Source: Candidatus Parcubacteria bacterium
Lineage (GTDB): Bacteria > Patescibacteriota > Minisyncoccia > Phycocordibacterales > Phycocordibacteraceae
Assembly: GCA_022616215.1 (NCBI GenBank)
Contig: JAKEFE010000016.1
Span: 5,175-29,174, forward strand
Reading direction: 5' to 3'
Length of the DNA stretch: 24,000 nucleotides
Made by a program: the position numbers and the translations under genes. Shown here piece by piece: positions 1-19,657 of the stretch (its first letter is position 1; each line of letters opens with the position of its first letter). The notes beneath the pieces were generated by a model, which was not told the DNA's origin, searched no databases, and saw only the letters and a program-made list of their open reading frames with translations.

Positions 1-455
1 TCTCCGGCACACAACCCAAGCACAGAAAGTACGCGAAGCGCCGCAAGACATTCGGCGGCATCGGCATCTTTTTCCGAAAGAGTCGGGAGCGCGTCAAGAA
101 ACTCGGAAAAAACATGAAAGAGTTTTGAATCGTGAATTTCACCGTGCACCAACCGGAGAAACAAGCTCGCTATGCGCCCCGCGCGAAGACGCGCGGGTTC
201 ACTTAGTTTTGCAAGCTTATTTTCTATGAGCACCGCTCCCGAAAGCCGCCATCCTTCTTTTCCGCGCACCAGAAGAGCGTGTGTGTGAGCGAGCGTTTGC
301 GCTGCGCAGGAAAGTTTTGCGCCGGATTTGCGAAGCCCCTGTGCACGAGCGCGCACAAGACCAAAGTCGGGCGTCAACAGATGGAGGAGTGCGCTTGCTT
401 CGGAAAGCGGCGAACGAGCGAGCACAATGGCCTCTGTGTCGTACCTAGCGCGCAT
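1..455 (-). CDS. recO: DNA repair protein RecO, N-terminal ~151 codons (3' end runs off the left edge)
   Basis: This frame is not in the supplied ORF track. Hand translation of the minus strand from ATG 455-453 gives MRARYDTEAIVLARSPLSEASALLHLLTPDFGLVRARAQGLRKSGAKLS...LLVRGKEGWRLSGAVL... with no stop down to position 3. That matches the RecO N-terminal OB-fold pattern (aivL...lt...G.v.a.A.G.rk..skl). The start overlaps the ileS stop by 11 nt. Confidence 0.7.
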   Translation of the reverse strand, partial: MRARYDTEAIVLARSPLSEASALLHLLTPDFGLVRARAQGLRKSGAKLSCAAQTLAHTHALLVRGKEGWRLSGAVLIENKLAKLSEPARLRAGRIASLFLRLVHGEIHDSKLFHVFSEFLDALPTLSEKDADAAECLAALRVLSVLGLCAG

Positions 456-3400
456 TGGTTTTCACCTCAAACTTTTCTACGCCCGTAGAAAGCACCACTT
501 CGTAGGGTCCTTTCCCCCATACCACGTCCACCTGGTCTTTGGGTGAAAGCCCCATAGCTTTTCGTGCATCCGCCACCGCGCGCAGTTTCTCGCGCTCATC
601 CCCTTCTTTCACCAGTTCTGGCGTAAGTACCGTATCAAGATGCAGTTCTGTTCCCGAGAGTTTTTTATCAAACACAACCTGCTTCACATTTATTTCCTCC
701 CGCAAAAGTTCAACGAGTTCTGGAGAAAACGGCACGCTGTCAGCTGCAAGCTGCAAGCTCTGTAGTGGTTGGCGCACTTTGATATTCGCCTTTTGCCGAA
801 GCATCAGTGCTTCGGAGGCAAGCGTGCGCACGCGCGCCATCTCTTCAACGAGTTTTTCATCAACAGCTCCTGCTTCCGGCCAGTCTGCCAAATGCACGCT
901 GTCCGGGTCGGCGAGGCTCTTTACGCTGCGGTACATTTCATCTGCAACAAACGGCATGACTGGTGCAGTGAGTTTTGAAAAAGTCAGCAGAACGTATCGC
1001 ATGGTGGCAAGCGCATGCGTCCGATCCTCTCCCATTTCTTTTACGCGTTCGCGCGAACGACGCACATACCACGTTGAAAAATCCTCAACAAATTCTCGCA
1101 TCGGACGCGAAGCATGAACCGTGTCGTATATCTCAAGCGAGTCAGTAATCGTTTTTGCAACTTCGGCAAGCCGAGAAAGTATCCAGCGGTCAAGGACATG
1201 CGGGGAATCCGCTGATGCGGCAACGGTGTCGTCTTGGTAGAGCGTATAAAACTGGAATGTATTGCGAAGAATATTAATGACTCGACCATGTACTTCTTTC
1301 ACGTCTTGGTCTTTGAAATTCAGATCTTCTGATTGCATGACGACGCTTGACATGAGGTAGTAGCGAAGAGCATCGGCTCCGTACTGATTAACAAGAATCA
1401 TCGGATCGGTGAAATTTCCGACGCTTTTGCTCATCTTTTGACCATCACTTGCAAGAATGGTGCCAGTTGAAACGACATTACTAAATGCGCGATGGTTAAA
1501 AAGAAGTACGGCAACGGCATGCATGTAGTAATACCATGTGCGCGTTTGTGCAATGTATTCTGATATGAAATCTCCCGGTGTTCGTTTTTCAAACTCCTCT
1601 TTGTTACGAAACGGATAGTGGTATTCGGCAAACGGCATACAACTAGACTCTACCCAGCAGTCTACGACTTCGGGAGTGCGGGTAAGTAGTTCACCTCGTT
1701 CATTCATCAACTTTACGTCGTCTATATAGGGCAAATGAACATCTAATTCAAAGTTCTCGTTATGAGGAAGCGGCACGAAAGGAAGTTCCCGTACTTCTCC
1801 GTTTTGCGGGTCTCTCGCTTTCTGCCAGTCGTTTAGAAACTCCTGCATGGTGAGTCCGTACGCGGTAGCGGTGAGCATGCGGATGACGGCACTGTGCGTC
1901 ACAAACAACACGGTTTCGTTTTTGTGTTCTTTTTCAAATTCATACAGAAATTCGCTTGCGCGTTTGCGAACGTCGTACCAGCTCTCCCCGCCCTCCGGAC
2001 GCTTGTGCATCATTTCGTCCGTACTGGTGAACGATTCGTGGTACTCCCTGATGGAGCGACCATTCCACACCCCTCCGTTGAGTTCAATAAGCCGTGGCTC
2101 TGTGGAAATGCGTTCATTTGGCAGACCAAGTGCTTCCGCTACCGCCTCCGCTGTTTGCTTCGTGCGGGCAAGCGGCGAACACACGATACGGGTAATGCTT
2201 TTGTCTTTGAGAAGAGCTCCAGCACGAAGCGCTGCTGCTCTGCCAAATTCAGTGAGATTGCCCGGAACAGAGTCGGTACTGTTCAACACATTCTCTACGT
2301 TATTCTCCGACTCGCCATGTCGCATTACAAAATAGTGATTCCCCGATTTCACCGTCAGTTTCTTAAGTTCCTCAAGTGAACCAATAACGGTTATGTCACC
2401 TTTTGCATCTTTCCAAATGGGAAGTGGGCTTGCCCAGAAACGGTTCCTAGAAATGGTCCAATCCGGCGCATTTTCTACGATGTTTTTGAACCGTCCGTGT
2501 TTTAAGTGTTCTGGAAACCAGTAAATCTTTTCGTTCTCATCAAGCATCTTCTGCTTGATTGATTGGGTGTCCACGAACCACGATGGCACGGCGTTATAAA
2601 TGAGCGGTGTGCCACATCGGTAACAGTGCGGATATGAGTGTGTGTACGGTTGAACATCAAACACGAGTGAACGGCTTCTTAGGTCTTCAATTATTTTTCC
2701 ATTCGCTTTTTTGATATGCTCGCCGCGCAGAAATTCCGGCACATCATCGTTATATGTGCCGTTTGAATTAAGGAGTGGAATCATCGGAAGATTTTGTGCT
2801 TTCCCAAGCTCGTAATCGTCTTCTCCGTACATGACTGCGGTGTGCACTATCCCCGTGCCGTCTTCCGTCGTCACAAAACCCGCAGAAACCACTTCCCATT
2901 TTTTCCCTGTGTGTGCTTTCACTTTTTCTATTTCGTACAGCGGTTCGTACTCTACGCCGACCAACTTCTCTCCCTTCACTACAGTTATGTCGTCGTATTC
3001 GGGATTGAAAGCGAAGTCCTTTGTGAGACCGGATGTTGGCTCTACGACCTCAACATTCCCGTGCATGCGTACACATGCCTCTTTCGCGACTACGAGAGAA
3101 ATCTCTGGCTCGGTTTTCTTCTTAAAGACTACGTAGTCGATGTCCTTTCCTACCGCAAGCGCAACGTTTCCGGGCAGAGTCCATGGCGTTGTCGTCCACG
3201 CGAGGAAAAAAGTGTTTTCAGGGAGTCCGTGTTTTTTCGGCTCTTTCACTTTGAACTTCACCGTTACCGCATCTTCCGTGATGTCCCTGTAGGTGTTGTC
3301 CATCGCAATCTCTGCTTTAGCAAGCGGCGTTTCGTCACGCGTGCAATACATGAGCACCCGTCTCCCTCCATAGAGCTTTCCTCTCTTATGGAATTCTTTC

Positions 3401-3885
3401 AATGCCCACCACACGCTCTCCATGAACGTGGCATCCATGGTCTTGTATGAGTTATCAAAATCTACGAAACGTCCGATACGCTCAATGTATCGTTTCCACT
3501 CATGAATGAACTCGAGCACTGTCTCACGTGCCACCATATTAAATTTGCCAATGCCATACGCAAGAATGTCTTTCTTTGATTTCAGTCCGAGTTTCTTTTC
3601 AACGATGCTCTCAATGGGAAGTCCGTGGGTGTCCCATCCCCATCTCCGGCGCACGTGATACCCGCGCATGGTTTTGTATCGCCCAAAAAGGTCTTTGGAG
3701 GTGCTTCCTAGAATGTGGCCGTGGTGTGGCAGTCCTGTGGCAAACGGAGGGCCATCGTAGAAAACGAATTCGCCTTTGTGAGACGGTTTTTCAAGCGAGC
3801 GTTCAAAAACCTTGTTCTCTTTCCACCACAAGAGTATTTCTTCTTCGCGTTTCGCTACGTCTGCTTTGCCTTTATCTTCGGCCAT
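445..3885 (-). CDS. ileS: Isoleucyl-tRNA synthetase (type-2-like) carrying an internal histidine-phosphatase domain insertion
   Basis: 1146-aa ORF. Class I signatures are present: PPFATGLPHHGHILG (HIGH) and DGQKMSKSVGN (KMSKS). IleRS blocks are present: WGWDTHGLPIE, TTTPWTLPGN, PDWTISRNRFWASPLPIW, VVDCWVESSCMPFA. Confidence 0.95.
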   Translation of the reverse strand: MAEDKGKADVAKREEEILLWWKENKVFERSLEKPSHKGEFVFYDGPPFATGLPHHGHILGSTSKDLFGRYKTMRGYHVRRRWGWDTHGLPIESIVEKKLGLKSKKDILAYGIGKFNMVARETVLEFIHEWKRYIERIGRFVDFDNSYKTMDATFMESVWWALKEFHKRGKLYGGRRVLMYCTRDETPLAKAEIAMDNTYRDITEDAVTVKFKVKEPKKHGLPENTFFLAWTTTPWTLPGNVALAVGKDIDYVVFKKKTEPEISLVVAKEACVRMHGNVEVVEPTSGLTKDFAFNPEYDDITVVKGEKLVGVEYEPLYEIEKVKAHTGKKWEVVSAGFVTTEDGTGIVHTAVMYGEDDYELGKAQNLPMIPLLNSNGTYNDDVPEFLRGEHIKKANGKIIEDLRSRSLVFDVQPYTHSYPHCYRCGTPLIYNAVPSWFVDTQSIKQKMLDENEKIYWFPEHLKHGRFKNIVENAPDWTISRNRFWASPLPIWKDAKGDITVIGSLEELKKLTVKSGNHYFVMRHGESENNVENVLNSTDSVPGNLTEFGRAAALRAGALLKDKSITRIVCSPLARTKQTAEAVAEALGLPNERISTEPRLIELNGGVWNGRSIREYHESFTSTDEMMHKRPEGGESWYDVRKRASEFLYEFEKEHKNETVLFVTHSAVIRMLTATAYGLTMQEFLNDWQKARDPQNGEVRELPFVPLPHNENFELDVHLPYIDDVKLMNERGELLTRTPEVVDCWVESSCMPFAEYHYPFRNKEEFEKRTPGDFISEYIAQTRTWYYYMHAVAVLLFNHRAFSNVVSTGTILASDGQKMSKSVGNFTDPMILVNQYGADALRYYLMSSVVMQSEDLNFKDQDVKEVHGRVINILRNTFQFYTLYQDDTVAASADSPHVLDRWILSRLAEVAKTITDSLEIYDTVHASRPMREFVEDFSTWYVRRSRERVKEMGEDRTHALATMRYVLLTFSKLTAPVMPFVADEMYRSVKSLADPDSVHLADWPEAGAVDEKLVEEMARVRTLASEALMLRQKANIKVRQPLQSLQLAADSVPFSPELVELLREEINVKQVVFDKKLSGTELHLDTVLTPELVKEGDEREKLRAVADARKAMGLSPKDQVDVVWGKGPYEVVLSTGVEKFEVKTNAR
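1749..2350 (-). other. In-frame ~195-200 aa histidine phosphatase superfamily (PGAM/CobC-like, branch 1) domain inside ileS; boundaries approximate
   Basis: Motifs read directly from the ileS frame: HYFVMRHGESENN (RHG catalytic His, nt ~2311-2340), CSPLARTKQTAE, EPRLIELNGGVWNG, VTHSAVIRML (second His). They lie between the IleRS blocks VIGSLEEL and DVHLPYIDD. Confidence 0.75.
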
Positions 3886-5566: not shown

Positions 5567-6820
5567 TTATTCAAACGATTCAGGGACAGGGCGAGCGGTA
5601 GCAAGTTCCTTAATACGAGCTTTAGCATTCCCTACTGCTGCCTCACGGTTTTTAAGGATATCTACCATGAGTTCCGCCACCTCTCTGCATTCTTTCTCCT
5701 TAAAACCGCGTGTGGTGATGGCAGGGGTGCCCAAACGAATGCCTGAAGGGTCCATCGGACGACGAGGATCGTCAGCAATAACGTTTTTGTTGAGCGTGAT
5801 GTTCGCTTCGTCCAACAGCTTTTCTGCTTCTCCGCCGGACATTCCAAACGACGATACGTCCGCGAGAACAAGGTGGTTGTCCGTGCCGCCGGTGATAAGG
5901 CGCATATTATGTTGAGAAAAGACCTCTGCCATCGCTTTCGCGTTTTTGATTATCTGCCTTGTATATTCTTTAAATGACGGCCGCAGAGCCTCGCCAAAAC
6001 ACACCGCTTTGGCCGCAATCATGTTCATCAAAGGGCCTCCCTGAAATCCGGGGAATACTGATTTGTTTATCTTCTTTGCGAGCTCTTCGTTTTCACGCGT
6101 GAGAATGATGCCTCCGCGAGGACCTCTCAGCGTTTTGTGCGTTGTGGAAAGCATGACGTCAAACCCGTACTGAAAAGGGTTTTTGAGAGCGCCTCCGGCA
6201 ATAAGTCCTGCAATGTGCGCCACGTCTGCAATGACAACAGCATCAACTTCCCTGCCGATAGAAACGAACTTTTCGTAATCAAGCTCCCGCGGATACGCAG
6301 AGAAACCAGCCATGATGACTTTCGGTTTTTCTTTCTTCGCTATCTCACGCATTTCCTCGTAATCAATAGCACCTGTCCCAGCATCTTTCATCTTGTAACG
6401 AACGAAATTGAATATCTTGGTGATGTAGGTTACCGGATGTCCGTGGGTGAGGTGTCCTCCGTGTGAAAGATCCATGCCCATGATGGTGTCGTCCGGCTCC
6501 ATGAGCGCAAAATAGGTAGCAATATTTGCTGGTGCTCCGGCGTGAGGTTGTACATTTGCGAAACTCGCGCCAAATAATTTCTTCGCGCGTTCGATAGCGA
6601 GCGTTTCTACTTGGTCGGTAAATTCTTGCCCGCCGTAGTAGCGCCTGCCCGGATACCCTTCCGAATATTTATTGGTCAAAACGCTTCCCATCGCTTCGCG
6701 AACTGCGTGCGAAACGTAGTTTTCAGATGGAATAAGCTCAAGCCCTTCTGCTTGGCGCTTTTCCTCTCCTTCTAATGTTCCGTATACTTCCGAGTCCTCC
6801 TTCTTGATATGTTCGTACAT
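5567..6820 (-). CDS. glyA: Serine hydroxymethyltransferase
   Basis: 417-aa ORF with SENYVSHAVREAMGSVLTNKYSEGYPGRRYYGG and the PLP-lysine motif STTHKTLRGPRGG. Confidence 0.95.
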   Translation of the reverse strand: MYEHIKKEDSEVYGTLEGEEKRQAEGLELIPSENYVSHAVREAMGSVLTNKYSEGYPGRRYYGGQEFTDQVETLAIERAKKLFGASFANVQPHAGAPANIATYFALMEPDDTIMGMDLSHGGHLTHGHPVTYITKIFNFVRYKMKDAGTGAIDYEEMREIAKKEKPKVIMAGFSAYPRELDYEKFVSIGREVDAVVIADVAHIAGLIAGGALKNPFQYGFDVMLSTTHKTLRGPRGGIILTRENEELAKKINKSVFPGFQGGPLMNMIAAKAVCFGEALRPSFKEYTRQIIKNAKAMAEVFSQHNMRLITGGTDNHLVLADVSSFGMSGGEAEKLLDEANITLNKNVIADDPRRPMDPSGIRLGTPAITTRGFKEKECREVAELMVDILKNREAAVGNAKARIKELATARPVPESFE

Positions 6821-6878
6821 GAATAGGAGTGTACCGCGCCCTCCCGAAAGGACATGGGGACAGCAAAAATGCGCACGC

Positions 6879-6884
6879 TATACT
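6879..6884 (+). promoter_or_regulatory. -10-like hexamer TATACT, 9 nt upstream of the dcd ATG
   Basis: The sequence reads cgcTATACTgtgccgaacATG, with no purine-rich Shine-Dalgarno between the hexamer and the start. The same architecture recurs at other operon-leading genes (see findings). Confidence 0.35.
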
Positions 6885-6893
6885 GTGCCGAAC

Positions 6894-7598
6894 ATGGCGT
6901 TATCCGACCGGCGAATCCTCGAGGAGCTCAAAAAAGGCGACATCGTCATTCACCCGTTTGATAAAAGTCATTTGGCAACTTCAAGTTACGACGTAACGCT
7001 TGGTGAATGGTTTTATCGCGAACAGCCGCCTCAATACAACCACAGTTTGTATAACATCTGGAGTCGCGAACATTCCGAACACGTCTGGGGCGCAGATAAG
7101 TGCGAGCGAGCGGTATTCGCAAAAGAAGCGTTTAAAAAATACAATTTCAACTGGGATGGTATTCGGCCAGATGACAAAGTCATTGTGCTGCGCCCCGGAG
7201 AAACCATCCTCGCTCACACGGAAGAATTCATCGGCGGCAAAGACCACATCACGACCATGATGAAAGCGCGGAGTTCCATGGGACGTAACTTCATTGAAGT
7301 ATGTAAGTGCGCTGGCTGGGGGGACGTAGGGTATGTAAACCGATGGACGATGGAAATAACGAATAACTCAAAGAATTACCTCATCCCGCTCGTTGTCGGG
7401 CGTCGCATCGCACAACTCATCTTTTTTGAGACCGGACCAATACTGGCGAGCGACTACGCCGCGCACGGTAAATACGCCTCGTCAACGAATGTGAAGAAGC
7501 TTGCAAAGATGTGGAAGCCGGAGGACATGCTCCCCAGACTCTGGCGTGACCGCGACCGCGAAAAACGCCAACCATGGCACCGAAAAAAGAGAGCATGA
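6894..7598 (+). CDS. dcd: dCTP deaminase family protein (Dcd/dUTPase-fold)
   Basis: The start was trimmed to the ATG at 6894 (MALSDRRILEELKKGDIVIHPFD...SSYDVTLG). Dcd-type motifs are LRPGETILAHTEE, ARSSMGR, GWGDVGY and TMEITN (catalytic Glu). The TGA stop overlaps the next start as ATGA. Confidence 0.85.
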   Translation: MALSDRRILEELKKGDIVIHPFDKSHLATSSYDVTLGEWFYREQPPQYNHSLYNIWSREHSEHVWGADKCERAVFAKEAFKKYNFNWDGIRPDDKVIVLRPGETILAHTEEFIGGKDHITTMMKARSSMGRNFIEVCKCAGWGDVGYVNRWTMEITNNSKNYLIPLVVGRRIAQLIFFETGPILASDYAAHGKYASSTNVKKLAKMWKPEDMLPRLWRDRDREKRQPWHRKKRA

Positions 7599-8677
7599 TG
7601 CGACCTCATTTCATCGCAGCGACCACGATGAATGAGCTGATTTTCAAGGCACTGGATACCATTTCCCATGACGGCATACGCACACCTTCGCGAAACGGCG
7701 AGACCAGTACGCTCTACAACACCTTCTTCACGCTGACGAACCCGCGCTCGCGGCATTTGAACCTCAAGGGCCGCAAGAACAACGTCTTCGCAATGATTGC
7801 CGAGACGTTCTGGGTACTCGCCGGACATGACGCACTTGATCCCGTGATGACCTTCTTCCTGCCACGCGCTAAGGATTTTTCCGACGACGGCATCACCTGG
7901 CGCGGCGCGTACGGACCGCGTCTCTATCTCTACAACCAGCTTGAAGACGCGGTGCGCGTCTTTCACGAGGAAGGGCTTGAAAGCCGCCGGTCGGTCATCG
8001 CCATTTACCTGCCGGAACGTGATACCAAGGAGAGCTTGAAAGAGATATACCACTTGGAAAACACGAAAGACCGACCATGCAACAACCTGCTCCACTTCTT
8101 CGTAACGCCCGACCAAAAGCTCCACATGAACGTATACCAGCGCTCTGGCGACGTGGTGTGGGGTATGGGAAGCATCAACGTGTTTGAGTGGACCGTCTTG
8201 CATGAGTTTGTCACAGGCGAGGTGCGCCGCCGCTCAAGCAAGGACGTGACGCTCGGCACCTACAATCATTTCGTTACCAATCTTCACCTCTACGACTTCA
8301 CCGGAGAGCAGGGGCGCGCAGTGCTTGAGAACAAAGATGCCCACGACTTCACTTCTGAAAATACAAAACCGCTCATTTTCCCGGAGGGCGTCGACGGAAT
8401 GAGGCGCTTCGCCACCGATTTGCTTGCCACATACGCGCACGCCATCGAAAGCAAGGAGCGCAACCACGAGACACTCATGCGCGAGGTGCGTGGCGTCTTT
8501 GATTTCCACAAGGTGTCTTGCAACGGCAATCTTCTTCCGGCGTATGCAGAACTTGCGGCCGCGTACATCACTACCAAGAACGGAAACCCCGACGTGTCCG
8601 TGTCGCTTGAGGGACACGACGAGGAGTTTGTGTCGAGCGTCCGGGACTCACACTTCAGGAAGTTCAAGCTCGTATGA
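7595..8677 (+). CDS. Thymidylate synthase (ThyA) superfamily pyrimidine C5-(hydroxy)methylase, divergent, with a ~100 aa C-terminal extension
   Basis: ThyA-like blocks are present: IAETFWVLAG, GAYGPRLY, SRRSVIAIY, DRPCNN (catalytic Cys), YQRSGDVVWGMGSIN (R-S-x-D plus the Asn that reads uracil), TNLHLY. I chose the start at 7595 (ATGA overlap with dcd); an alternative ATG lies at 7574. Confidence 0.75.
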   Translation: MMRPHFIAATTMNELIFKALDTISHDGIRTPSRNGETSTLYNTFFTLTNPRSRHLNLKGRKNNVFAMIAETFWVLAGHDALDPVMTFFLPRAKDFSDDGITWRGAYGPRLYLYNQLEDAVRVFHEEGLESRRSVIAIYLPERDTKESLKEIYHLENTKDRPCNNLLHFFVTPDQKLHMNVYQRSGDVVWGMGSINVFEWTVLHEFVTGEVRRRSSKDVTLGTYNHFVTNLHLYDFTGEQGRAVLENKDAHDFTSENTKPLIFPEGVDGMRRFATDLLATYAHAIESKERNHETLMREVRGVFDFHKVSCNGNLLPAYAELAAAYITTKNGNPDVSVSLEGHDEEFVSSVRDSHFRKFKLV

Positions 8678-9306
8678 CCTGCGGCGCGACCCCACAACAC
8701 CTCATCACCAGCATCGTCGCGCTTCAAGCGGAAAAGGAGCATGCGTACGGAGTGGATTGGAAACGTTTCGGCTTGGTCTCTTCTTTCTTCAATGTGTACC
8801 GCAAGCTTATCCGACTTCGCACGGTCTTCGAGCGCGGGTGGAAGCCCACGGCAGATGACACGCGACTGGACACCATTATTGACCTTTTGAACTACCTCAT
8901 CCTCTCGGTGCTCCTGCATGCGGAGCTCTTTCCGGAGGCATTTCGCACGGTGATAGGCACCGAGCACGCACCAGAGGATTTTCCGACAAACCGACACGGC
9001 TTTGCCCGATTTGCGACAGAAGTCTTGTTACCGAGCATCGCGAAGGTGAAGCCCGCCGAAGCCATACCGGACATCATCGCGACTGGCGAGCGCGCCATTG
9101 AGGCGTGGCTTGTGGCAATCGGACAGATGAGTGAAGAACTTGCCGGACAAAAAACAGTGTGCGCTCCCGGACCCGCCCTCATGGATGATGCCGACCGGCT
9201 CGCCGCTATTCATTCGATGATTCTGTTGTGCGTAGCCGCGGCTCTTGCCCATGTAAAAACCTGCCCTGATGAGTGGGAGCGGTTCGTCACGCGCTACGGC
9301 ACATAA
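8674..9306 (+). CDS. DUF1599 / nucleotide-modification-associated domain 1 (Nmad1)-like protein with an uncharacterised C-terminal half
   Basis: The N-terminal ~95 aa fit the DUF1599 pattern as I remember it: K..aYG..W...g......v..Kl.Rl........d..lDt..Dl.NY (KEHAYGVDWKRFGL...YRKLIRLRTV...DDTRLDTIIDLLNYL). The start overlaps the upstream stop as ATGA. The family call is from memory, not a search. Confidence 0.5.
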   Translation: MTCGATPQHLITSIVALQAEKEHAYGVDWKRFGLVSSFFNVYRKLIRLRTVFERGWKPTADDTRLDTIIDLLNYLILSVLLHAELFPEAFRTVIGTEHAPEDFPTNRHGFARFATEVLLPSIAKVKPAEAIPDIIATGERAIEAWLVAIGQMSEELAGQKTVCAPGPALMDDADRLAAIHSMILLCVAAALAHVKTCPDEWERFVTRYGT

Positions 9307-9309
9307 CAC

Positions 9310-9334
9310 AAAGCCCCGCTCTCGCGGGGCTTTT
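9310..9334. terminator. Bidirectional intrinsic terminator between the convergent 8674..9306 gene and rplK
   Basis: AAA-GCCCCGC-tctc-GCGGGGC-TTTT: a 7-bp GC stem, a 4-nt loop, and A/T tracts on both sides. Confidence 0.7.
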
Positions 9335-9336
9335 GT

Positions 9337-9756
9337 TTACTTCACGTCTACGCCCATGCTCCTCGCTGTGCCTTCAATGATGCGGTCTGCCGCTTCCGGA
9401 GATGCAGCATTCAAATCCGGCATTTTTTGCTCTGAAATCTCGCGCACCTGCGTTTTGGTAAGCGTGCCCGCTTTTTTGGATGGCGTTTTTCCAGAACCTT
9501 TATCAATGCCAAGCTTCTTCAAAATGAGACGTGAGGCTGGAGGAGTTTTGAGTACGAATGAGAACGTGCGGTCCTCGTAGACAGAAAGGTCAACGGGAAT
9601 GATGTCTCCCATCTTGTCCCTAGTCGCCTCGTTGAATTTGCTGACAAAATCTCCAATGTTGACACCCGCAGGCCCGAGCACGGTACCCACCGGCGGCGCA
9701 GGGGTAGCTTTGCCTGCCGGGATTTGGAGTTTTATTTTTTTAACGACTTTAGCCAT
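9337..9756 (-). CDS. rplK: 50S ribosomal protein L11
   Basis: 139-aa ORF: [34 protein letters not shown]...KTPPAS..., a full-length L11 pattern. Confidence 0.95.
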
Positions 9757-9773: not shown

Positions 9774-10343
9774 TTAGAGTTTGCGGATTTGCAAAAAATC
9801 GAGTTCCACCGGCGTTTCGCGTCCGAACATGGAAACAAGCACTTTGACCTTGCCGCGCTCTTCGTCCACCTCACCTACTTTGCCTTCAAGATCTTTGAAC
9901 GGTCCGTCGTTAATGACCACCGGATCGTCTTTTGCAAGGTCAATGCGGTGTTTGGGCGCCTCCTGATCCATGCGCTTCATCAAGAGTGCCACTTCGGCGT
10001 CTTCCATGGGTACTGGTGTGGTGCCGCTTCCTACAAAGCCGGTAACGCGCGGAGTGTTGCGAACCACAAACCACGAATCTTCGTCCACAATCATGTGCAC
10101 CAAAATGTAACCCGGGTAGATTTTTTCTTCCTCAACGACGCGTTTGCCGCCTTTGACCCGCACTTTCTTTTCGGTGGGCACCACGACCTCAAAAATCTTA
10201 TTCCCCATGCCCAAGGACTCAATGCGCTGTTTCAAGTTCCGCTCTACCGCGTTTTCATATCCCGCGTAGGTATGAATGGAGTACCAGCGCGGTTCAGGGT
10301 TTTTCGCGTCTTCTGAAAATTGCGGCGAGGTGTACGTTTCCAT
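9774..10343 (-). CDS. nusG: Transcription termination/antitermination factor NusG
   Basis: The start was trimmed to the ATG at 10343 (METYTSPQF...). It has an NGN domain (RWYSIHTYAGYENAVERNL...PGYILV) and a KOW domain (VINDGPFKDLEGKVGEVDEERGKVKVLVSMFGRETPVEL). It sits 4 nt after the secE stop. Confidence 0.9.
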   Translation of the reverse strand: METYTSPQFSEDAKNPEPRWYSIHTYAGYENAVERNLKQRIESLGMGNKIFEVVVPTEKKVRVKGGKRVVEEEKIYPGYILVHMIVDEDSWFVVRNTPRVTGFVGSGTTPVPMEDAEVALLMKRMDQEAPKHRIDLAKDDPVVINDGPFKDLEGKVGEVDEERGKVKVLVSMFGRETPVELDFLQIRKL

Positions 10344-10347
10344 ATCG

Positions 10348-10527
10348 TTAGATGATGATGCCGACGAGACTAGTAAGCAGGTAGTCAAGCACGCCGATAC
10401 ATACCGCAACAAAGGCGGAGATGGCAAGAATGAGAAGCGTGTGCATAAGTGCCTGCCGAGATTTTGGCCACACAACATGCGTGAGTTCTCCGCGCACATT
10501 TTTGAGATAGCTGAAAAGGTTTTTCAT
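10348..10527 (-). CDS. secE: Preprotein translocase subunit SecE
   Basis: The start was trimmed to the ATG at 10527. The 59-aa product is MKNLFSYLKNVRGELTHVVWPKSRQALMHTLLILAISAFVAV..., the typical SecE pattern (E..KV.WP) with a single TM helix. The canonical secE-nusG-rplK order supports the call. Confidence 0.8.
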   Translation of the reverse strand: MKNLFSYLKNVRGELTHVVWPKSRQALMHTLLILAISAFVAVCIGVLDYLLTSLVGIII

Positions 10528-10550
10528 TCCGGTAGTTGCCCTTTGATTTT

Positions 10551-10572
10551 TAAAAGGCGCCCCGCGGGCGCT
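10551..10572 (-). terminator. Candidate intrinsic terminator upstream of secE, ending the SIMPL gene transcript
   Basis: The minus strand reads GCGCCC-gcg-GGGCGC followed by CTTTTAAAAAT. The stem is short (6 bp), so support is only moderate. Confidence 0.4.
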
Positions 10573-10653
10573 TATACCCATGAGTATACCAAAAACGACA
10601 AAGCGGTCAAGGGAGTACACAAGCCCCTGTTCGAGGGCTTGTGTGTGTCTGTT

Positions 10654-11463
10654 TTACTTGATTTCGTAGGTGATGGAAACTGTGACGGTGGTTTCCTGCT
10701 CTCCGGTGGGAAGAGGCGGCGTGGAGACAGGTCTTCCCTGCTCCGCATCCAGTGCTCCGCCGTATCCGTAGTCATAGTAGGGAGGGAACGGGCCAGTGGT
10801 TTCGTAGAAGGACACTACTTTCCCAAGCGAAACGCCTAGCTGTTTGGCGAGTGTTTTCGCTTTCGCTTTTGCCTCCTCAATCGCTTCCTCGCGTGCGACG
10901 TTTCGTATCTCGTCTTCTTCATCCACGGTGAAGTTCGGACCTGAAATGTTCCCGACGCCGAGAGTTCCAAGCGCCTCAAGCACCGCTCCCGCCTTTCCGG
11001 TATCGCGTACTTTCACCTCAACGGTCTGCGAGACGGTGTAGCCGATGATGCGCGGGTTCTCCCGCGGTGGGCAGTAGCCTGCATAGCACGGCTCTCCGTA
11101 GTCGTATTCCGGATAGACGCTGTATCCTATGGTCTTCACATCACGCTCGAGAATGGCAAGTCCTTCTACGGCTCCGAGCGCCGCTTCAGTTTTTTCGGTG
11201 GCTTTCCCCTGTGCTTCGGCAACGGTTACCCCTTCCTCGGTAACCGAAAAAGAAATGACGGCAATGTCGGGAATTGAAGCGGACTTCCCCGTTCCTTCAA
11301 CGGTAATCACATTTGCCGGATACATGTCCGGACGGCCGATTTCTTCAATAGCATCAATGGCATGAATGAGAAGAAAAAGCGCGAGCACGGAAAGCGCCGC
11401 GGTGGCCGCATATCTCACCGGACGCGTTGCCTGCACAAAAACCTCTCCAAAAGATTCGTTCAT
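10654..11463 (-). CDS. SIMPL (DUF541) domain protein, membrane-anchored or secreted
   Basis: It has an N-terminal TM/signal helix (AATAALSVLALFLLIHAI), followed by VEGTGKSASIPDIAVISFSV...GYTVSQTVEVKVRD...ARE.AIEEAKAKAKTLAKQLG, the characteristic SIMPL layout. Confidence 0.7.
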   Translation of the reverse strand: MNESFGEVFVQATRPVRYAATAALSVLALFLLIHAIDAIEEIGRPDMYPANVITVEGTGKSASIPDIAVISFSVTEEGVTVAEAQGKATEKTEAALGAVEGLAILERDVKTIGYSVYPEYDYGEPCYAGYCPPRENPRIIGYTVSQTVEVKVRDTGKAGAVLEALGTLGVGNISGPNFTVDEEDEIRNVAREEAIEEAKAKAKTLAKQLGVSLGKVVSFYETTGPFPPYYDYGYGGALDAEQGRPVSTPPLPTGEQETTVTVSITYEIK

Positions 11464-11540
11464 GATGATGTGTTACTTATCAGTGGCATTAGTATATCAC
11501 GGGGCGGCCGTCAGTCTCTTTGTGTGGTACCCTCCCCTAC

Positions 11541-12296
11541 ATGACTCCGTTCGTACAAAGTGCACTAGCCGTGGGCGTTGTCAGTCTTGCCTCACTTGTT
11601 GGTATCGCAACGCTGTTTCTTCGTGAAGATAGCTTGAAACGAGCGCTGTTCATCCTCATTGCGCTTGCCGCCGGTGCCCTTCTTGGAAACGCGTTTATTC
11701 ATCTCATCCCCGAAGCGTTTGCTAAAGCAGACCCAACCCTTGTCGCGGTGGTGGTGCTTGCGGGTATTTTGTCTTTTTTCCTGCTTGAGAAATTCCTTCG
11801 CTGGCACCACAGCCACGGCGATGAAGAATTTCATCCAGACCACGCAAAAATCCATCCGCTCGGGCGTCTCGTGCTCATTTCAGATGCTCTGCATAACATC
11901 GTAGACGGCGTGGCCATTGGTGCTGCTTTTTTGGTCTCAACCGAAATAGGTATCGCAACGGCCATTGCCATCGCGCTTCACGAAATACCTCAAGAGATAG
12001 GTGATTTTGGTCTTCTCATCCATTCTGGATTTTCCAGACTGCAGGCGCTTTTTGTGAATTTCCTTTCGGCCTTGACCGCGTTTGTTGGTCTTGGCCTTGC
12101 ATTTTTGCTTGCGGATGCGAACGAAACGCTTATCCCTCTCATTGCCGCGTTTGCTGCCGGTAATTTTATCTACATTGCGCTTGCCGACATCATCCCGGAA
12201 CTCCAGAAAATATCTGATGTCCGTCGGTCAATGGTTCAGTTTGCGGTAATTGTACTTGGCATTATCGCTATGGTTGGGCTTCTCGGGCTTGAATAA
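11541..12296 (+). CDS. ZIP family divalent metal transporter (ZupT-like)
   Basis: The ATG at 11541 gives MTPFVQSAL.... It has multiple TM helices, a His-rich loop HHSHGDEEFHPDH and the ZIP signature LHEIPQEIGDFGLL. Confidence 0.85.
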   Translation: MTPFVQSALAVGVVSLASLVGIATLFLREDSLKRALFILIALAAGALLGNAFIHLIPEAFAKADPTLVAVVVLAGILSFFLLEKFLRWHHSHGDEEFHPDHAKIHPLGRLVLISDALHNIVDGVAIGAAFLVSTEIGIATAIAIALHEIPQEIGDFGLLIHSGFSRLQALFVNFLSALTAFVGLGLAFLLADANETLIPLIAAFAAGNFIYIALADIIPELQKISDVRRSMVQFAVIVLGIIAMVGLLGLE

Positions 12297-14069: not shown

Positions 14070-14684
14070 TTATGCCGCAGTTTTCTCTTCTTCTTTCTCC
14101 TCAACTGCCGGAACTTCGGCAATCATCTCTTCAGGACTTTCCTCACCAAGCGGCTCGCTTGCGGCAATGGCGGCGTTTGCGGATGCTTCGGCCTCTACTT
14201 CGTCAGCTTTCTCGGCTAAATCAATCTGCTTAGCAGATTGATCGCCCGACGCATCCTTTGATGCGTCTAGGGCAAAATCCGTTGTAGAAACGTTCATTAT
14301 GCGCATATTGCGAAGCTGGCGCTTTACTTCGCGGGCAACTTTTTCACGAATGAAATACAGTTTGGCGCGGCGAACCTTTGATCGTTTGACTATTTCAATT
14401 TTCTCAATAAATGGAGCGTAGAGCGGGAAAATACGTTCAACCCCGATGCCCGAGAGAGTCGCGCGCACGGTAAAAGAAGCGCCTGCTTCTTTTCCGTGTT
14501 TGACCGCGATAACAAGGCCTTCAAATACCTGTGTACGGGCGTTGCTCGTCGTTGTCTCTTTTTTGTTGGCGGCCTTGCCTTTTTTGGTCTCAACAATTTT
14601 TTGGTGAACGCGCACCGTGTCCCCCGGCTTGATGCCAAGCTTGGTGCGTTCCTCTACTTTGACGGGAGTAATAACTTTTTCCAT
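14070..14684 (-). CDS. rplS: 50S ribosomal protein L19 with an internal insertion and a long acidic C-terminal tail
   Basis: The start was trimmed to the ATG at 14684 ([12 protein letters not shown]...). The L19 core is [12 protein letters not shown]...[20 protein letters not shown]....[34 protein letters not shown]. About 85 extra Ala/Glu/Asp-rich residues follow. Confidence 0.9.
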
Positions 14685-14709
14685 GAGTGGCCGCACTCTA
14701 ACACAAGTG

Positions 14710-15450
14710 CTAGTCCGCGGCAAACCGTTCTGCGGCTTCCAAAAAGTCTGCGGGCGGGGGTGCCACAAACGTCTTTCGCTCGCCCGACGGAAGGGTGATG
14801 GAGAGCGTTGAGGCATGGAGCGCCGGACGTACAAACCCCAACAGACAGGGTTTTCCTGCCGCATATATAGGGTCACAAATGATGGGGTGTCCAACATATC
14901 TCATGTGTACGCGCAGTTGATGCGTGCGACCGGTTTTAGGCGACAGTACCATATATGACACCGGCTCATTCGTCTTAGTGTCGCTCCCGCGTATTTCAAC
15001 GTTCCAGGTCGTTATCGCCGCCCGATGTTTTTTATCCTCCCCTTCGCGCATCACACCCCAGCGCGGCGGCATGGACCGAAGGCGCACGATTTCTTTTTCA
15101 ATAGTTCCCGCATCTTTTTTCGGATGTCCGTACACATATGCGGCGTATGTTTTTTCCGTAGTCCGACTTCCGAATTGTTCTTTGAGAAATGCGTGCGCCT
15201 CCTGCGTCTTTGCAAGTATGAGTGCGCCGGAGGTTGTTTTATCCAGCCGGTGCACGATGCCCGGGCGCGCGATGGTTTCTCCCTGCGGGGTAACGAGCGG
15301 CTCGCCCACCTCTGCCGTCTGCGGATACTTGTTCACCACCCATTCGGTTACCGAATACTCCTTATTGCGGCCGTCCGGATGCACGATAAGCCCCGCCGGT
15401 TTGTCTATGACCAGTACGTTGTCGTCTTCATACAGAACGGTTGGCTTCAT
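14710..15450 (-). CDS. RluA-family pseudouridine synthase (no S4 domain)
   Basis: 246-aa ORF with [14 protein letters not shown], the catalytic Asp motif [18 protein letters not shown], and [10 protein letters not shown]. Confidence 0.9.
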
Positions 15451-17715: not shown

Positions 17716-17718
17716 ATC

Positions 17719-17731
17719 TTCAGTATATATG
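17719..17731 (-). promoter_or_regulatory. Shared 5' motif CATATATACTGAA (contains a TATACT -10-like hexamer) ending 3 nt from the orphan A ATG (TATACT ends 6 nt from it)
   Basis: The minus strand reads caccaccgttCATATATACTGAAgatATGcatgaag. A near-identical string precedes orphan B at 19468..19480. Confidence 0.4.
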
Positions 17732-17740
17732 AACGGTGGT

Positions 17741-17780
17741 GCTGTAATTATACACTTCGCGCGAAGTGTATAATTACAGC
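17741..17780. repeat. Perfect 40-bp palindrome (20 + 20 nt, no spacer)
   Basis: GCTGTAATTATACACTTCGC|GCGAAGTGTATAATTACAGC, verified base by base. Each arm contains TGTATAAT, an extended -10 consensus, facing outward on either strand. Confidence 0.95.
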
Positions 17781-17904
17781 ACTGCAAAGCAGTGCGAGGA
17801 GACGAAGAAAGCCGGAGTGCGAGGCGGGGTCGCGGAAATGTTCAGCAGAGCATTATCCGTGACCAAGTCCCTCAGCGCGCACTGCAAAACAATCAGAGAG
17901 CGCC

Positions 17905-19464: not shown

Positions 19465-19467
19465 GCT

Positions 19468-19480
19468 TTCAGTATATATG
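19468..19480 (-). promoter_or_regulatory. Second copy of the CATATATACTGAA motif, ending 3 nt from the orphan B ATG (TATACT ends 6 nt from it) and starting 6 nt after tRNA-Leu(CAG)
   Basis: The minus strand reads cacaccgtCATATATACTGAAagcATGcgtgaag. Confidence 0.4.
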
Positions 19481-19486
19481 ACGGTG

Positions 19487-19569
19487 TGCCCAAGAGAGGA
19501 TTTGAACCTCCAACCCGTTACAGGATACGCTTCTGAGGCGTACGCGTATACCAATTCCGCCACTTGGGC
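19487..19569 (-). tRNA. tRNA-Leu (anticodon CAG), class II, CCA not encoded
   Basis: Acceptor GCCCAAG/CTTGGGC + A. Anticodon arm TACGC-CTCAGAA-GCGTA. Long variable arm. T arm GGAGG-TTCAAAT-CCTCT. The 3' flank is CAC. Confidence 0.85.
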
Positions 19570-19570
19570 C

Positions 19571-19645
19571 TGGTGCCTCCGGTAGGAATCGAACCCACAT
19601 CAACTCCTTAGAAGAGAGCTGCTCTATCCATTGAGCTACGGAGGC
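19571..19645 (-). tRNA. tRNA-Arg (anticodon TCT), CCA encoded
   Basis: Acceptor GCCTCCG/CGGAGGC + A + CCA. D arm GCTC-AATGGATA-GAGC. Anticodon loop CTTCTAA. T arm GTGGG-TTCGATT-CCTAC. It lies 1 nt from tRNA-Leu(CAG). Confidence 0.85.
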
Positions 19646-19657
19646 TTTTCTACAGTA

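What the first reader, a model, noticed from the sequence alone, without database searches (positions are those of the whole stretch)
6894..9306. Translationally coupled dcd / ThyA-like / Nmad1-like cassette divergent from glyA
Seen in sequence: the three plus-strand genes are joined by two ATGA start/stop overlaps, at 7595-7598 and 8674-8677. They end at a clean bidirectional terminator at 9310-9334. They diverge from glyA across only 73 bp.

Established knowledge: Dcd makes dUTP from dCTP, ThyA-family enzymes transfer the one-carbon unit of 5,10-methylene-THF to C5 of dUMP or dCMP, and SHMT (glyA) regenerates methylene-THF. In phages, ThyA homologues next to accessory 'nucleotide modification associated' domains make 5-hydroxymethyl-pyrimidines for DNA hypermodification.

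Inference: the cassette could be a self-contained dCTP to dUTP to dUMP to dTMP salvage module. In that case the third, all-helical protein would supply the missing dUTP pyrophosphatase step. Alternatively it could be a chromosomal 5-hydroxymethyl-dUMP / modified-thymidine pathway. No dihydrofolate reductase gene is present in this window, which a canonical ThyA would need.
Basis: partly seen in the sequence, partly recalled or inferred. Interest (0 to 1): 0.7.

Follow-up and report, generated by a model that had tools for sequence, protein, structure and literature searches.

The report
Chromosomal dUMP hydroxymethylase operon in Parcubacteria
A tiny uncultured bacterium carries, among its core housekeeping genes, a three-gene operon whose central enzyme looks like the one some phages use to make 5-hydroxymethyl-uracil nucleotides instead of thymidylate, so its DNA or nucleotide pool may contain a modified thymine.

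Summary
They end at a 10-bp bidirectional hairpin and lie 73 bp from divergent glyA.

The middle protein is not an ordinary ThyA. It misses every NCBIfam ThyA cut-off. Its best solved relative, by sequence and by fold, is the CMP hydroxymethylase MilA. It groups with phage dUMP hydroxymethylases and with the TS of the validated E. coli NTTI defence system. It keeps the catalytic Cys and the uracil-reading Asn, but lacks the folate-stacking Trp and the C-terminal tail.

In sister genomes (60-64% identity) it is fused to the third protein. There it sits beside a 5-hmdU-DNA-kinase-like gene, with a canonical ThyA and DHFR nearby.

The third protein is a divergent Nmad1/DUF1599 domain. It has no solved relative and lacks the acidic residues expected of a dUTPase.

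Best reading: the operon makes dUMP from dCTP and hydroxymethylates it to 5-hm-dUMP, with SHMT supplying methylene-THF. It is a cut-down version of a lineage-specific pyrimidine island. The kinase and the fate of the product are not encoded in the window. No enzyme activity has been tested.

The parts
5567..6820 (-). glyA, serine hydroxymethyltransferase. Regenerates 5,10-methylene-THF from THF. A conserved neighbour of the island.
   Evidence: Pfam SHMT 2.8e-152. It is 71% identical to the SHMT that lies next to the island in relative L039. SHMT also flanks the island in L046/L047.
6821..6893 (.). 73-bp divergent intergenic region with a sigma-70-like site at 6857-6884 (+). The -10 element ends 9 nt before the dcd ATG.
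   Evidence: Coordinates. Promoter-like match GGGACA-16-TATACT. This is a consensus match only: 2 sites were found against 1.5 expected.
6894..7598 (+). dcd, dCTP deaminase (234 aa). Supplies dUTP, or dUMP if it is bifunctional.
   Evidence: Pfam DCD 1.7e-31. PHROG dCTP deaminase 3.9e-33. TIGR02274 scores 87.9 bits, just under its cut-off of 92.8. The best solved relatives include enzymes deposited as bifunctional or dUMP-forming (1ogh, 3gf0, 2hxd, around 1e-12). E. coli Dcd gives only 27 bits, but the equivalents of S111, R115 and E138 (S127, R131, E154) are kept. It is 75% identical to the Dcd of relative L039.
7595..8677 (+). TS-family enzyme (360 aa), predicted to be a dUMP 5-hydroxymethylase. 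It has a TS core plus a C-terminal helical domain of about 110 aa.
   Evidence: Pfam TS only 38.8 bits. All NCBIfam ThyA models are far below cut-off. phrog_3676 1.5e-81 over the full length. PDB best hit by sequence is MilA, 2.5e-17, against ThyA at about 5e-3. AF2 pLDDT 94.7. Foldseek best hit is MilA over 355 columns with TMq 0.73, against ThyA with TMq about 0.54. C162, R183, S184, D186, N195, H231 and Y233 align to E. coli C146, R166, S167, D169, N177, H207 and Y209. W80 and W83 align to A and F, H147 to N163, and there is no ThyA C-terminus.
8674..9306 (+). Nmad1/DUF1599-like all-helical protein (210 aa). Proposed accessory or nucleotide-binding partner of the hydroxymethylase.
   Evidence: DUF1599 1.2e-3, 19.5 bits, below the cut-off. 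8 of 18 family members hit DUF1599, best 6.4e-7. It is fused to the C-terminus of the TS-like enzyme in P0002-P0004. AF2 pLDDT 86.6 with nine helices. Its N-terminal 85 residues or so superpose on viral Nmad1 proteins. No PDB relative was found.
9310..9333 (.). Bidirectional intrinsic terminator shared with convergent rplK.
   Evidence: Stem of 10 pairs (7 G-C), 4-nt loop, T-rich tails on both strands. rplK lies at 9337-9756 (-).

Best explanation
The three genes form one operon that diverts deoxycytidine nucleotides into 5-hydroxymethyl-dUMP.

1. Dcd deaminates dCTP to dUTP. It may make dUMP directly, because it resembles the bifunctional dCTP deaminase/dUTPases.
2. The TS-family enzyme attacks C6 of dUMP with Cys162 and takes the methylene from 5,10-CH2-THF. 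Instead of hydride transfer it lets water add, giving 5-hm-dUMP and THF.
3. The divergently transcribed SHMT reloads THF from serine, so no DHFR is required.
4. The third protein is a divergent Nmad1 domain that works physically with the hydroxymethylase, to which it is fused in sister genomes. It is more likely a nucleotide-binding, regulatory or assembly subunit than a hydrolase.

The cassette is a reduced version of a vertically inherited pyrimidine island found at the same place (next to ArgRS, SHMT and L11) in related Parcubacteria/Magasanikbacteria-type genomes. The fuller versions add a 5-hmdU-DNA-kinase-like gene, a dNMP kinase, phosphohydrolases and a canonical ThyA/DHFR pair.

Shown here: gene structure, family placement, active-site residues, fusion, synteny. 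Inferred: the product (5-hm-dUMP), the role of protein 3, and any incorporation into DNA.
For: Operon: two ATGA overlaps, one terminator, identical independent gene calls.

Evidence that the enzyme is a hydroxymethylase and not ThyA:
- NCBIfam ThyA equivalogs score 14-38 bits against cut-offs of 108-427.
- The best solved match by sequence and by fold is MilA, including the C-terminal helices.
- It is 36-40% identical to TS homologues of Ackermannviridae (ViI-like) and Vibrio phages, and about 29% to those of the SPO1 group. Both phage groups make 5-hmdU (PMC8989533).
- In an NJ tree it sits with the fused CPR (candidate phyla radiation) proteins. Its pairing with P0002 has 94% bootstrap, and the two canonical ThyAs fall outside.
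- Asn195 occupies the position of E. coli N177, where T4 gp42 has Asp. The equivalents of W80 and W83 and the ThyA C-terminus are missing.

Context:
- The relatives L039 (64% identity), L006 (60%) and L054 have TS-like::Nmad1 fusions next to HMUDK_hel genes. L039 and L006 also carry a canonical ThyA with DHFR.
- L050 has Nmad1 - HD - a gp42-like TS - HMUDK - canonical ThyA.
- In a census of 40+ loci, almost every TS-like gene has an HMUDK-like gene within about 2.5 kb.

Link to Nmad1:
- More than 45 representative clusters are TS::Nmad1 fusions.
- The hmU phage SP82G encodes an Nmad1 protein three genes after its TS homologue.

Vertical inheritance: Dcd is 75%, SHMT 71% and the TS-like protein 64% identical to L039. 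The same chromosomal site is occupied in L046. GC content of the cassette (0.54-0.55) is close to that of the flanks.
Against: - No enzyme activity has been measured for this clade in cellular genomes. The product is inferred from homology and neighbourhood.
- The window has no HMUDK, dNMP kinase, dut, tmk, thyA or folA, so nothing here shows what happens to 5-hm-dUMP.
- This locus is the exception to the TS-like/HMUDK rule.
- At the same chromosomal site the relative L046 carries a canonical DCD::ThyA fusion with HMUDK and Nmad1, and no TS-like gene in 16.5 kb. The TS-like gene here could therefore have displaced ThyA functionally.
- Deep nodes of the NJ tree have low bootstrap support.
- Protein 3 matches DUF1599 only below threshold, and its role is a guess.
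- The rest of the genome could not be inspected.
Confidence: 0.6

Rival explanations
1. The middle gene is simply this organism's thymidylate synthase. The pathway would be dCTP to dUTP/dUMP to dTMP, a divergent but methyl-forming TS that has replaced canonical ThyA at this locus, with DHF recycled by a DHFR encoded elsewhere.
For: The catalytic Cys, the phosphate-binding Arg residues, Asn195, His231 and Tyr233 are all present. The dcd here is the orthologue (75%) of a dcd that sits in a thyA-dcd-folB-folA operon in L039. The syntenic site in L046 holds a canonical DCD::ThyA fusion. No canonical thyA is seen in 24 kb. Public annotation calls all family members 'thymidylate synthase'.
Against: It fails every ThyA equivalog cut-off by a wide margin. 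It lacks the W80/W83 equivalents and the C-terminal tail; in ThyA, loss of these favours leakage of the methylene intermediate (established knowledge from TS mutants, recalled, not tested here). It is closest to hydroxymethylases in sequence and fold. Relatives keep a canonical ThyA and DHFR alongside it, which argues for a non-redundant function.
Confidence: 0.17
2. The cassette is, or derives from, an anti-phage system of the NTTI type (TS - dNMP kinase - 5-hmdU DNA kinase - TIR - Nmad2). Such a system would make hydroxymethyl-dU nucleotides to corrupt or mark phage DNA during infection, rather than to modify the host chromosome.
For: The TS of the experimentally validated E. coli system DS-3/NTTI belongs to the same clade. 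Its Salmonella, Xenorhabdus and Shewanella homologues are 40-45% identical to the window protein (PMC13092281). Relative L039 has the same parts list: a kinase, TS::Nmad, and HMUDK. A TS::Nmad1-HMUDK cluster in Bosea lies near an AbiJ gene.
Against: There is no PADLOC hit for any of the three proteins. The window has no kinase, TIR or effector, and no integrase or other defence genes. The cassette sits between glyA and rplK-nusG-secE in a conserved core region and looks vertically inherited. The NMAD domain is of a different family (Nmad1-like here, Nmad2 in NTTI).
Confidence: 0.12
3. Protein 3 is a catalytic all-alpha NTP pyrophosphatase of the dUTPase or dTTPase type. It would turn Dcd's dUTP into dUMP for the TS-like enzyme, or clear competing dTTP.
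For: The protein is all-helical. A profile-profile alignment to dimeric dUTPase_2 proteins is in register over 77 columns with pairwise E = 0.0027. Nmad1 domains are also found fused to MazG-MazG_C proteins. Phage relatives place dUTPase or NTP-PPase genes next to the TS homologue.
Against: hhalign probability is only 11%, and only one of the four metal-binding acids of the dUTPases aligns with an acid. The D-x-x-E that most Nmad1 proteins have on helix 2 reads I-R-L-R in this subfamily. There is no PDB or Foldseek match to any NTP-PPase at E < 0.1. Relatives have ordinary trimeric dut genes.
Confidence: 0.1

Closest known systems
Phage dUMP hydroxymethylases (SPO1 gp29 / SP82G type; ViI/CBA120 orf073 type of Ackermannviridae)
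   Same: Same TS-family clade, with 29-40% identity. They share the catalytic Cys, the uracil-reading Asn and a helical C-terminal extension. SP82G also encodes an Nmad1 protein nearby. A dUMP supply gene is linked, as in phages (PMC8989533).
   Different: This one is encoded in a cellular chromosome among ribosomal and tRNA-synthetase genes, not in a virus. dUMP comes from dCTP deaminase rather than dCMP deaminase. No dNMP kinase, dTTPase or phage polymerase accompanies it.
MilA, CMP 5-hydroxymethylase of mildiomycin biosynthesis (PDB 5jnh, 5b6d)
   Same: Best solved relative by sequence (2.5e-17) and by fold, including the C-terminal helical domain (TMq 0.73 over 355 columns).
   Different: MilA has Asp where this protein has Asn195 (alignment), as expected for a cytosine versus a uracil substrate. 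MilA belongs to an antibiotic pathway and acts on a ribonucleotide.
NTTI (DS-3) anti-phage system of E. coli (DefensePredictor, PMC13092281)
   Same: Its 361-aa 'thymidylate synthase' is in the same clade. [quoted passage not shown]
   Different: NTTI has a dNMP kinase, a 5-hmdU DNA kinase, a TIR protein and Nmad2, and it sits in integrase-flanked defence islands. The window has none of these. It has dcd and an Nmad1-like protein instead.
Thymidine hypermodification clusters (5-HMUDK plus aGPT-Pplase pathways of phages M6, ViI, SP10, PhiW-14)
   Same: Sister CPR loci couple the same TS-like::Nmad1 protein to HMUDK_hel genes. The closest non-CPR homologues (52-54% identity) lie in phage-like clusters with HMUDK, HMUD2, ADDT/aGPT-Pplase3 and TAGT.
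   Different: No HMUDK or aGPT-Pplase is present in this window. Even the CPR relatives lack a recognisable aGPT-Pplase.
dUTPase - ThyX - DUF1599 block of Asgard archaeal wyrdviruses (bioRxiv 10.1101/2021.07.29.453957)
   Same: A three-gene block that combines a dUMP supplier, a C5 one-carbon transferase and an Nmad1 protein.
   Different: That block uses the unrelated flavin-dependent ThyX and a dUTPase, is viral, and is interpreted there as plain dTMP synthesis.

Membership tests
Canonical thymidylate synthase ThyA (EC 2.1.1.45) | Passes the curated family models | tested here: not met
   The Pfam domain model is passed weakly (38.8 bits against 24.3). All seven NCBIfam ThyA equivalogs are far below cut-off (best 38 bits against 174.55).
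Canonical thymidylate synthase ThyA (EC 2.1.1.45) | Catalytic Cys and dUMP-binding residues (E. coli C146, R166, S167, D169, N177, H207, Y209) | tested here: met
   C162, R183, S184, D186, N195, H231 and Y233 are aligned and invariant in the clade.
Canonical thymidylate synthase ThyA (EC 2.1.1.45) | Folate-stacking Trp80/Trp83, His147, and a C-terminal carboxylate that closes the active site for hydride transfer | tested here: not met
   W80 and W83 align to A92 and F95, and H147 to N163. The ThyA C-terminus is replaced by a helical domain of about 110 aa.
Canonical thymidylate synthase ThyA (EC 2.1.1.45) | Genomic partnership with DHFR | tested here: not met
   No DHFR in 24 kb. In relatives DHFR pairs with a separate canonical ThyA. 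The rest of the genome was not available.
Pyrimidine (dUMP) 5-hydroxymethylase branch of the TS superfamily | Closer in sequence and fold to known hydroxymethylases than to ThyA | tested here: met
   MilA 2.5e-17 against ThyA 5e-3. Foldseek MilA TMq 0.73 against ThyA 0.54. Phage TS homologues of 5-hmdU-making phages are 29-40% identical. Tree.
Pyrimidine (dUMP) 5-hydroxymethylase branch of the TS superfamily | Uracil rather than cytosine specificity: Asn, not Asp, at the E. coli N177 / T4 gp42 D179 position | tested here: met
   N195 is invariant in 30 homologues. T4 gp42 and MilA have Asp at this column.
Pyrimidine (dUMP) 5-hydroxymethylase branch of the TS superfamily | The product is 5-hm-dUMP plus THF | not testable with these tools
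   Needs an enzyme assay.
Nmad1 / DUF1599 (PF07659) | Passes the Pfam gathering score | tested here: not met
   19.5 bits against a cut-off of 25, E = 1.2e-3, covering profile positions 1-58 of 61.
Nmad1 / DUF1599 (PF07659) | Linked to bona fide members through intermediates, shared motif and fold | tested here: met
   A profile search links it to 327 proteins. 8 of 18 aligned members hit DUF1599, best 6.4e-7. The invariant residues K21, Y25, W29, R43, K44, R47, D66, T67, D70 and Y74 are shared. Its N-terminal 85 residues or so superpose on annotated viral Nmad1 proteins at rmsd 1.8-3.5 A with probability 0.77-0.96, although E-values are above 1.
dCTP deaminase (Dcd / DCD-DUT) | DCD fold model and the catalytic Ser/Arg/Glu | tested here: met
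   PF22769 1.7e-31. S127, R131 and E154 align to E. coli S111, R115 and E138. TIGR02274 is 4.9 bits below its cut-off.
dCTP deaminase (Dcd / DCD-DUT) | Bifunctional (dUMP-forming) rather than monofunctional | tested here: inconclusive
   The PDB hits include enzymes deposited as bifunctional or dUMP-forming (1ogh, 3gf0, 2hxd). E. coli Dcd was not among the hits at E <= 0.01 and gives 27 bits pairwise. No sequence rule was applied, so an assay is needed.
NTTI (DS-3) defence system | Five-gene set: TS, dNMP kinase, 5-hmdU DNA kinase, TIR, Nmad2, in a defence island | tested here: not met
   Only the TS component has a homologue here. There is no kinase, TIR or Nmad2 in the window, and the neighbours are core housekeeping genes.
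Thymidine hypermodification cluster | 5-HMUDK and aGPT-Pplase encoded with the hydroxymethylase | tested here: not met
   Both are absent from the window. HMUDK_hel is present in the CPR relatives L006, L039, L046, L050 and L054.

The most novel reading that the evidence does not exclude
A lineage of Parcubacteria/Magasanikbacteria-type bacteria makes 5-hydroxymethyl-dU nucleotides as a normal, vertically inherited chromosomal function and puts them into its own DNA. Relatives with the kinase-like gene would process them further at the DNA level. This organism, like SPO1-type phages, would carry plain 5-hmU. That would be the first cellular genome with a precursor-level, folate-dependent thymine replacement. 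The Nmad1 domain would be the dedicated partner that adapts TS-family enzymes for this chemistry.
Probability: 0.15. Interest if true: 0.85.

Novelty: new variant of a known kind. Interest (0 to 1): 0.52.

Why it matters
Synthesis of 5-hydroxymethyl-dUMP by thymidylate-synthase homologues is textbook phage biology. It has recently also turned up in a bacterial defence system.

Here the same enzyme clade is fixed at a core chromosomal position in ultra-small uncultured bacteria. It is translationally coupled to its dUMP supplier and to an uncharacterised Nmad1 partner, and it sits next to the enzyme that recharges its folate cofactor.

If the product reaches the chromosome, these bacteria would have non-canonical DNA. 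That would affect restriction and defence, sequencing and assembly biases in metagenomes, and the question of where phage hypermodification pathways came from.

If it does not, the locus is still useful in two ways. The repeated fission and fusion of the TS-like and Nmad1 genes gives a concrete, testable handle on the function of Nmad1/DUF1599, which has no known biochemistry. The locus also warns that 'thymidylate synthase' annotations in these genomes cannot be used to infer dTMP autonomy.

Tried and rejected
- PADLOC models: no hit for any of the three proteins.
- Protein 3 against PDB by phmmer, by profile and by Foldseek: only noise such as designed helical bundles and GPCRs.
- Protein 3 by tblastn against 50,697 phage genomes: no match.
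- The metagenome scan with the Nmad1-subfamily profile returned only the Magasanikbacteria locus already in hand.
- The genome-collection scan found just one CPR genome, so synteny rests on about six independent CPR contigs.
- Recent horizontal acquisition or a prophage remnant was rejected. GC content matches the flanks. There are no integrase or phage genes. Identity to L039 is graded across dcd, the TS-like gene and glyA.
- A sequencing frameshift splitting a fused TS::Nmad1 gene was rejected. An independent assembly has the same split, and stand-alone Nmad1 genes occur in L040, L046 and L050.
- My first local 'canonical ThyA' HMM wrongly included the L050 enzyme, which is gp42-like (89 bits to gp42 against 61 to ThyA). 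This was corrected. The 'canonThyA' scores should therefore be read with care.
- Iyer et al. 2013 (which defined the Nmad domains) and the SPO1 genome paper could not be read. Statements about them are from memory and were not used as evidence.
- Bifunctionality of the Dcd could not be settled from sequence.


Full report
**Observation**

The window encodes three plus-strand genes: dcd at 6894-7598, a thymidylate-synthase (TS) family gene at 7595-8677, and a gene for a helical protein at 8674-9306. The stop of each gene overlaps the start of the next in the tetranucleotide ATGA, at 7595-7598 and 8674-8677. glyA (5567-6820, minus strand) starts 73 bp upstream of dcd and points the other way.

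A hairpin of 10 pairs (7 of them G-C) at 9310-9333 is scored as a terminator on both strands and is shared with convergent rplK. An independent assembly of the same locus carries identical gene calls of 234, 360 and 210 aa. The dcd start is confirmed by a 75%-identical orthologue that begins with the same residues.

**Surroundings**

The rest of the window is ordinary core genome of a CPR (candidate phyla radiation)-type bacterium. A public source names the third protein as coming from 'Candidatus Parcubacteria bacterium'. The genes are a class I tRNA synthetase with an inserted histidine-phosphatase domain, ArgRS, SHMT, L11, NusG, SecE, SIMPL, a ZIP transporter, L19, a pseudouridine synthase, UppS and PilM-type pilus genes.

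Three searches found no thyA, thyX, folA, dut, tmk, dNMP kinase or 5-hmdU DNA kinase in the 24 kb: Pfam scans, tblastn with relatives' proteins, and local HMMs. GC content of the cassette (0.54-0.55) is close to that of its flanks.

**The middle protein is not an ordinary ThyA**

- It passes the Pfam TS domain model only weakly (38.8 bits).
- It misses all seven NCBIfam ThyA equivalog models by a wide margin.
- It matches a phage family, phrog_3676, end to end at 1.5e-81.
- Among solved structures its best sequence match is the CMP 5-hydroxymethylase MilA (2.5e-17). Canonical ThyAs and T4 dCMP hydroxymethylase score only about 5e-3 to 9e-3.
- A high-confidence AF2 model (pLDDT 94.7) superposes on MilA over 355 columns, including the C-terminal helical domain (TMq 0.73). 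Canonical ThyAs cover only the core of about 262 residues (TMq about 0.54).
- Among phage genomes it is 39-40% identical over its full length to the 'thymidylate synthase' of 157-kb Vibrio phages. It is 36-39% identical over the core to that of ViI-like Ackermannviridae, and about 29% to that of SPO1-group Bacillus phages. The Ackermannviridae and SPO1-group phages make 5-hmdU from a TS homologue, the dUMP hydroxymethylase (PMC8989533).

In a multiple alignment with E. coli ThyA it keeps the catalytic Cys (C162) and R183, S184, D186, H231 and Y233. It also keeps Asn195 at the base-discriminating position, where T4 gp42 and MilA have Asp. That fits a uracil substrate. It lacks the two folate-contacting tryptophans (W80 and W83 align to Ala and Phe). 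It has Asn in place of His147, and a helical domain replaces the ThyA C-terminus.

**Neighbourhoods of relatives**

The closest homologues (59-64% identity) are proteins of 585-590 aa. In them the TS-like enzyme is fused at its C-terminus to a domain clearly homologous to the window's third protein.

| Locus | Relation to the window | Gene content |
|---|---|---|
| L039 | TS-like 64%, Dcd 75%, SHMT 71% identical | [folA-folB-dcd-canonical thyA], divergent [P-loop kinase, TS-like::Nmad1], [HMUDK_hel-containing gene], [dut, glyA] |
| L006 (Magasanikbacteria MAG) | TS-like 60% identical | TS-like::Nmad1 followed by an HD phosphohydrolase and an HMUDK_hel gene; tmk, a deoxyribosyltransferase, DHFR, canonical ThyA, dut, a dNMP kinase and dCMP deaminase within 8 kb |
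| L054 | fused TS-like::Nmad1, 59% identical | fusion - HMUDK - nucleotidyltransferase - HIT/NUDIX - dCMP deaminase - deoxyribosyltransferase, next to ArgRS |
| L050 | stand-alone Nmad1, 44% identical | Nmad1 - HD - a gp42-like TS that also has Asn at the discriminating position - HMUDK - canonical ThyA |
| L046 | colinear with the window (ZIP-SIMPL-SecE-NusG-L11 ... SHMT-ArgRS-IleRS) | the same site holds DHFR, a P-loop kinase, a DCD::canonical-ThyA fusion, HIT, HMUDK and a stand-alone Nmad1 |

The island is therefore an old, vertically inherited and compositionally fluid feature of this lineage. The window holds its smallest version.

Outside the CPR, the next homologues (52-54% identity) lie in phage-like contigs. 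These carry HMUDK, HMUD2, ADDT/aGPT-Pplase3, TAGT, NT5C, dimeric dUTPase and PolB. Homologues at about 40% identity form the first gene of the E. coli/Salmonella NTTI (DS-3) defence system: TS - dNMP kinase - HMUDK - TIR - Nmad2, in integrase-flanked islands (PMC13092281).

In a local HMM census of all fetched loci, almost every TS-like gene has an HMUDK-like gene within about 2.5 kb. The window is an exception.

**The third protein**

Pfam DUF1599/Nmad1 matches below threshold (19.5 bits against 25) but covers nearly the whole model. A profile search of 1.84 billion representatives finds 327 relatives. More than 45 clusters are TS::Nmad1 fusions of 500-600 aa, and one is a MazG-MazG_C-Nmad1 fusion. 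Eight of 18 aligned members hit DUF1599.

Genome loci from Actinobacteria, Alphaproteobacteria and other phyla carry such fusions directly upstream of HMUDK. The hmU phage SP82G encodes an Nmad1 protein three genes after its TS homologue.

The AF2 model is a confident nine-helix bundle (pLDDT 86.6). It has no solved relative by sequence or by Foldseek. Its N-terminal 85 residues or so superpose on several viral proteins annotated as Nmad1.

The invariant residues are K21, Y25, W29, R43, K44, R47, D66, T67, D70 and Y74. This pattern suggests a phosphate- or nucleotide-binding site, which is inference.

A profile-profile comparison with dimeric dUTPases aligns in register but weakly (probability 11%). 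Only one of the four metal-binding acids is retained. This subfamily has also lost the D-x-x-E found on helix 2 of most Nmad1 proteins. I therefore regard the dUTPase idea as unlikely. I propose a non-hydrolytic partner subunit of the hydroxymethylase, supported mainly by the repeated fusion and fission of the two genes.

**Dcd**

The DCD fold and the catalytic Ser/Arg/Glu are present. Its solved relatives include enzymes deposited as bifunctional or dUMP-forming dCTP deaminases. E. coli Dcd is much more distant. Bifunctionality would make dUMP directly, but I could not settle this from sequence.

**Mechanism proposed**

Dcd converts dCTP to dUTP or dUMP. The TS-like enzyme converts dUMP and CH2-THF to 5-hm-dUMP and THF. 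SHMT converts THF and serine back to CH2-THF. Because THF and not DHF is released, the cycle closes without DHFR. This fits the joint absence of thyA and folA from this locus, whereas relatives keep those two genes as a separate pair. The steps after 5-hm-dUMP are not encoded here.

**Rival explanations**

- The enzyme is the cell's real dTMP synthase. The L046 synteny and the thyA-operon ancestry of this dcd support this reading. The family placement, the missing residues and the coexistence with ThyA in relatives count against it.
- The cassette is a defence module of the NTTI type. Its parts are missing and it sits in a core context.
- Protein 3 is a dUTPase. The catalytic residues are missing.

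**Novelty**

All the ingredients are known kinds: the dUMP hydroxymethylase clade, the Nmad1 association, the linkage to HMUDK, and the NTTI system. What is new is the setting and the architecture. The operon is translationally coupled as dcd - hydroxymethylase - Nmad1, fixed in the core genome of a CPR lineage beside glyA, and has no DNA kinase. I rate it a new variant of a known kind, of moderate interest.

The most novel reading not excluded is that these bacteria place 5-hmU or a derivative in their own chromosome. I give that about 15%.

Noticed in passing
window 445-3885 (-): A class I tRNA synthetase (IleRS/ValRS-like, 1146 aa) carries a complete histidine-phosphatase (His_Phos_1) domain inserted at residues 519-684, inside the catalytic domain. 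The same insertion is present in the syntenic relative L046 (1106 aa).
   Followed up: partly
window 6857-6893: The only promoter-like site in the divergent gap ends 9 nt before the dcd ATG, so the operon mRNA may be leaderless or nearly so. No Shine-Dalgarno sequence was examined.
   Followed up: no
L046 5557-7554 (+): A 665-aa fusion of a large-type dCTP deaminase (DCD_N/DCD_C) with a fully canonical ThyA. It is followed by HIT, an HMUDK-like gene and a stand-alone Nmad1 gene, at the chromosomal position that the window's cassette occupies.
   Followed up: partly
L050 2277-3131 (+): A 284-aa T4-gp42-like TS homologue with Asn instead of Asp at the cytosine-reading position. It lies in an operon Nmad1 - HD - TS - HMUDK, immediately upstream of a canonical thyA. 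This is a second, independent hydroxymethylase lineage recruited to the same CPR island.
   Followed up: partly
L014-L038 (match at about 10000-11600 in most loci): TS::Nmad1 fusion genes of 530-600 aa, directly followed by an HMUDK-like gene, occur in chromosomes of Actinobacteria, Alphaproteobacteria, Verrucomicrobia and others. In Bosea the cluster includes a TylF-type methyltransferase and lies near an AbiJ gene. Their function in cells is unstudied here.
   Followed up: partly
L004 4833-5546 (+) (Bacillus phage SP82G, sp82g_157): A 'hypothetical protein' of the classical hydroxymethyluracil phage has a clear Nmad1 motif (YGSSW ... NIDRKYDRL ... DAVADLANY). It lies between the TS homologue and the HU-like and DNA polymerase genes.
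   Followed up: partly
window 14070-14897 (-) and 9774-10499 (-): The L19 and NusG ORFs are much longer than the Pfam-matched parts (L19 match at residues 88-192 of 275; NusG at 71-173 of 241). The L19 ORF overlaps the upstream pseudouridine synthase ORF by 188 nt. The true starts are probably internal; the other assembly calls NusG at 189 aa.
   Followed up: no
window 16582-21029 (-): A run of five ORFs (401, 552, 104, 169 and 184 aa) without any Pfam match lies upstream of a PilM-like gene. They are possibly divergent pilus components.
   Followed up: no
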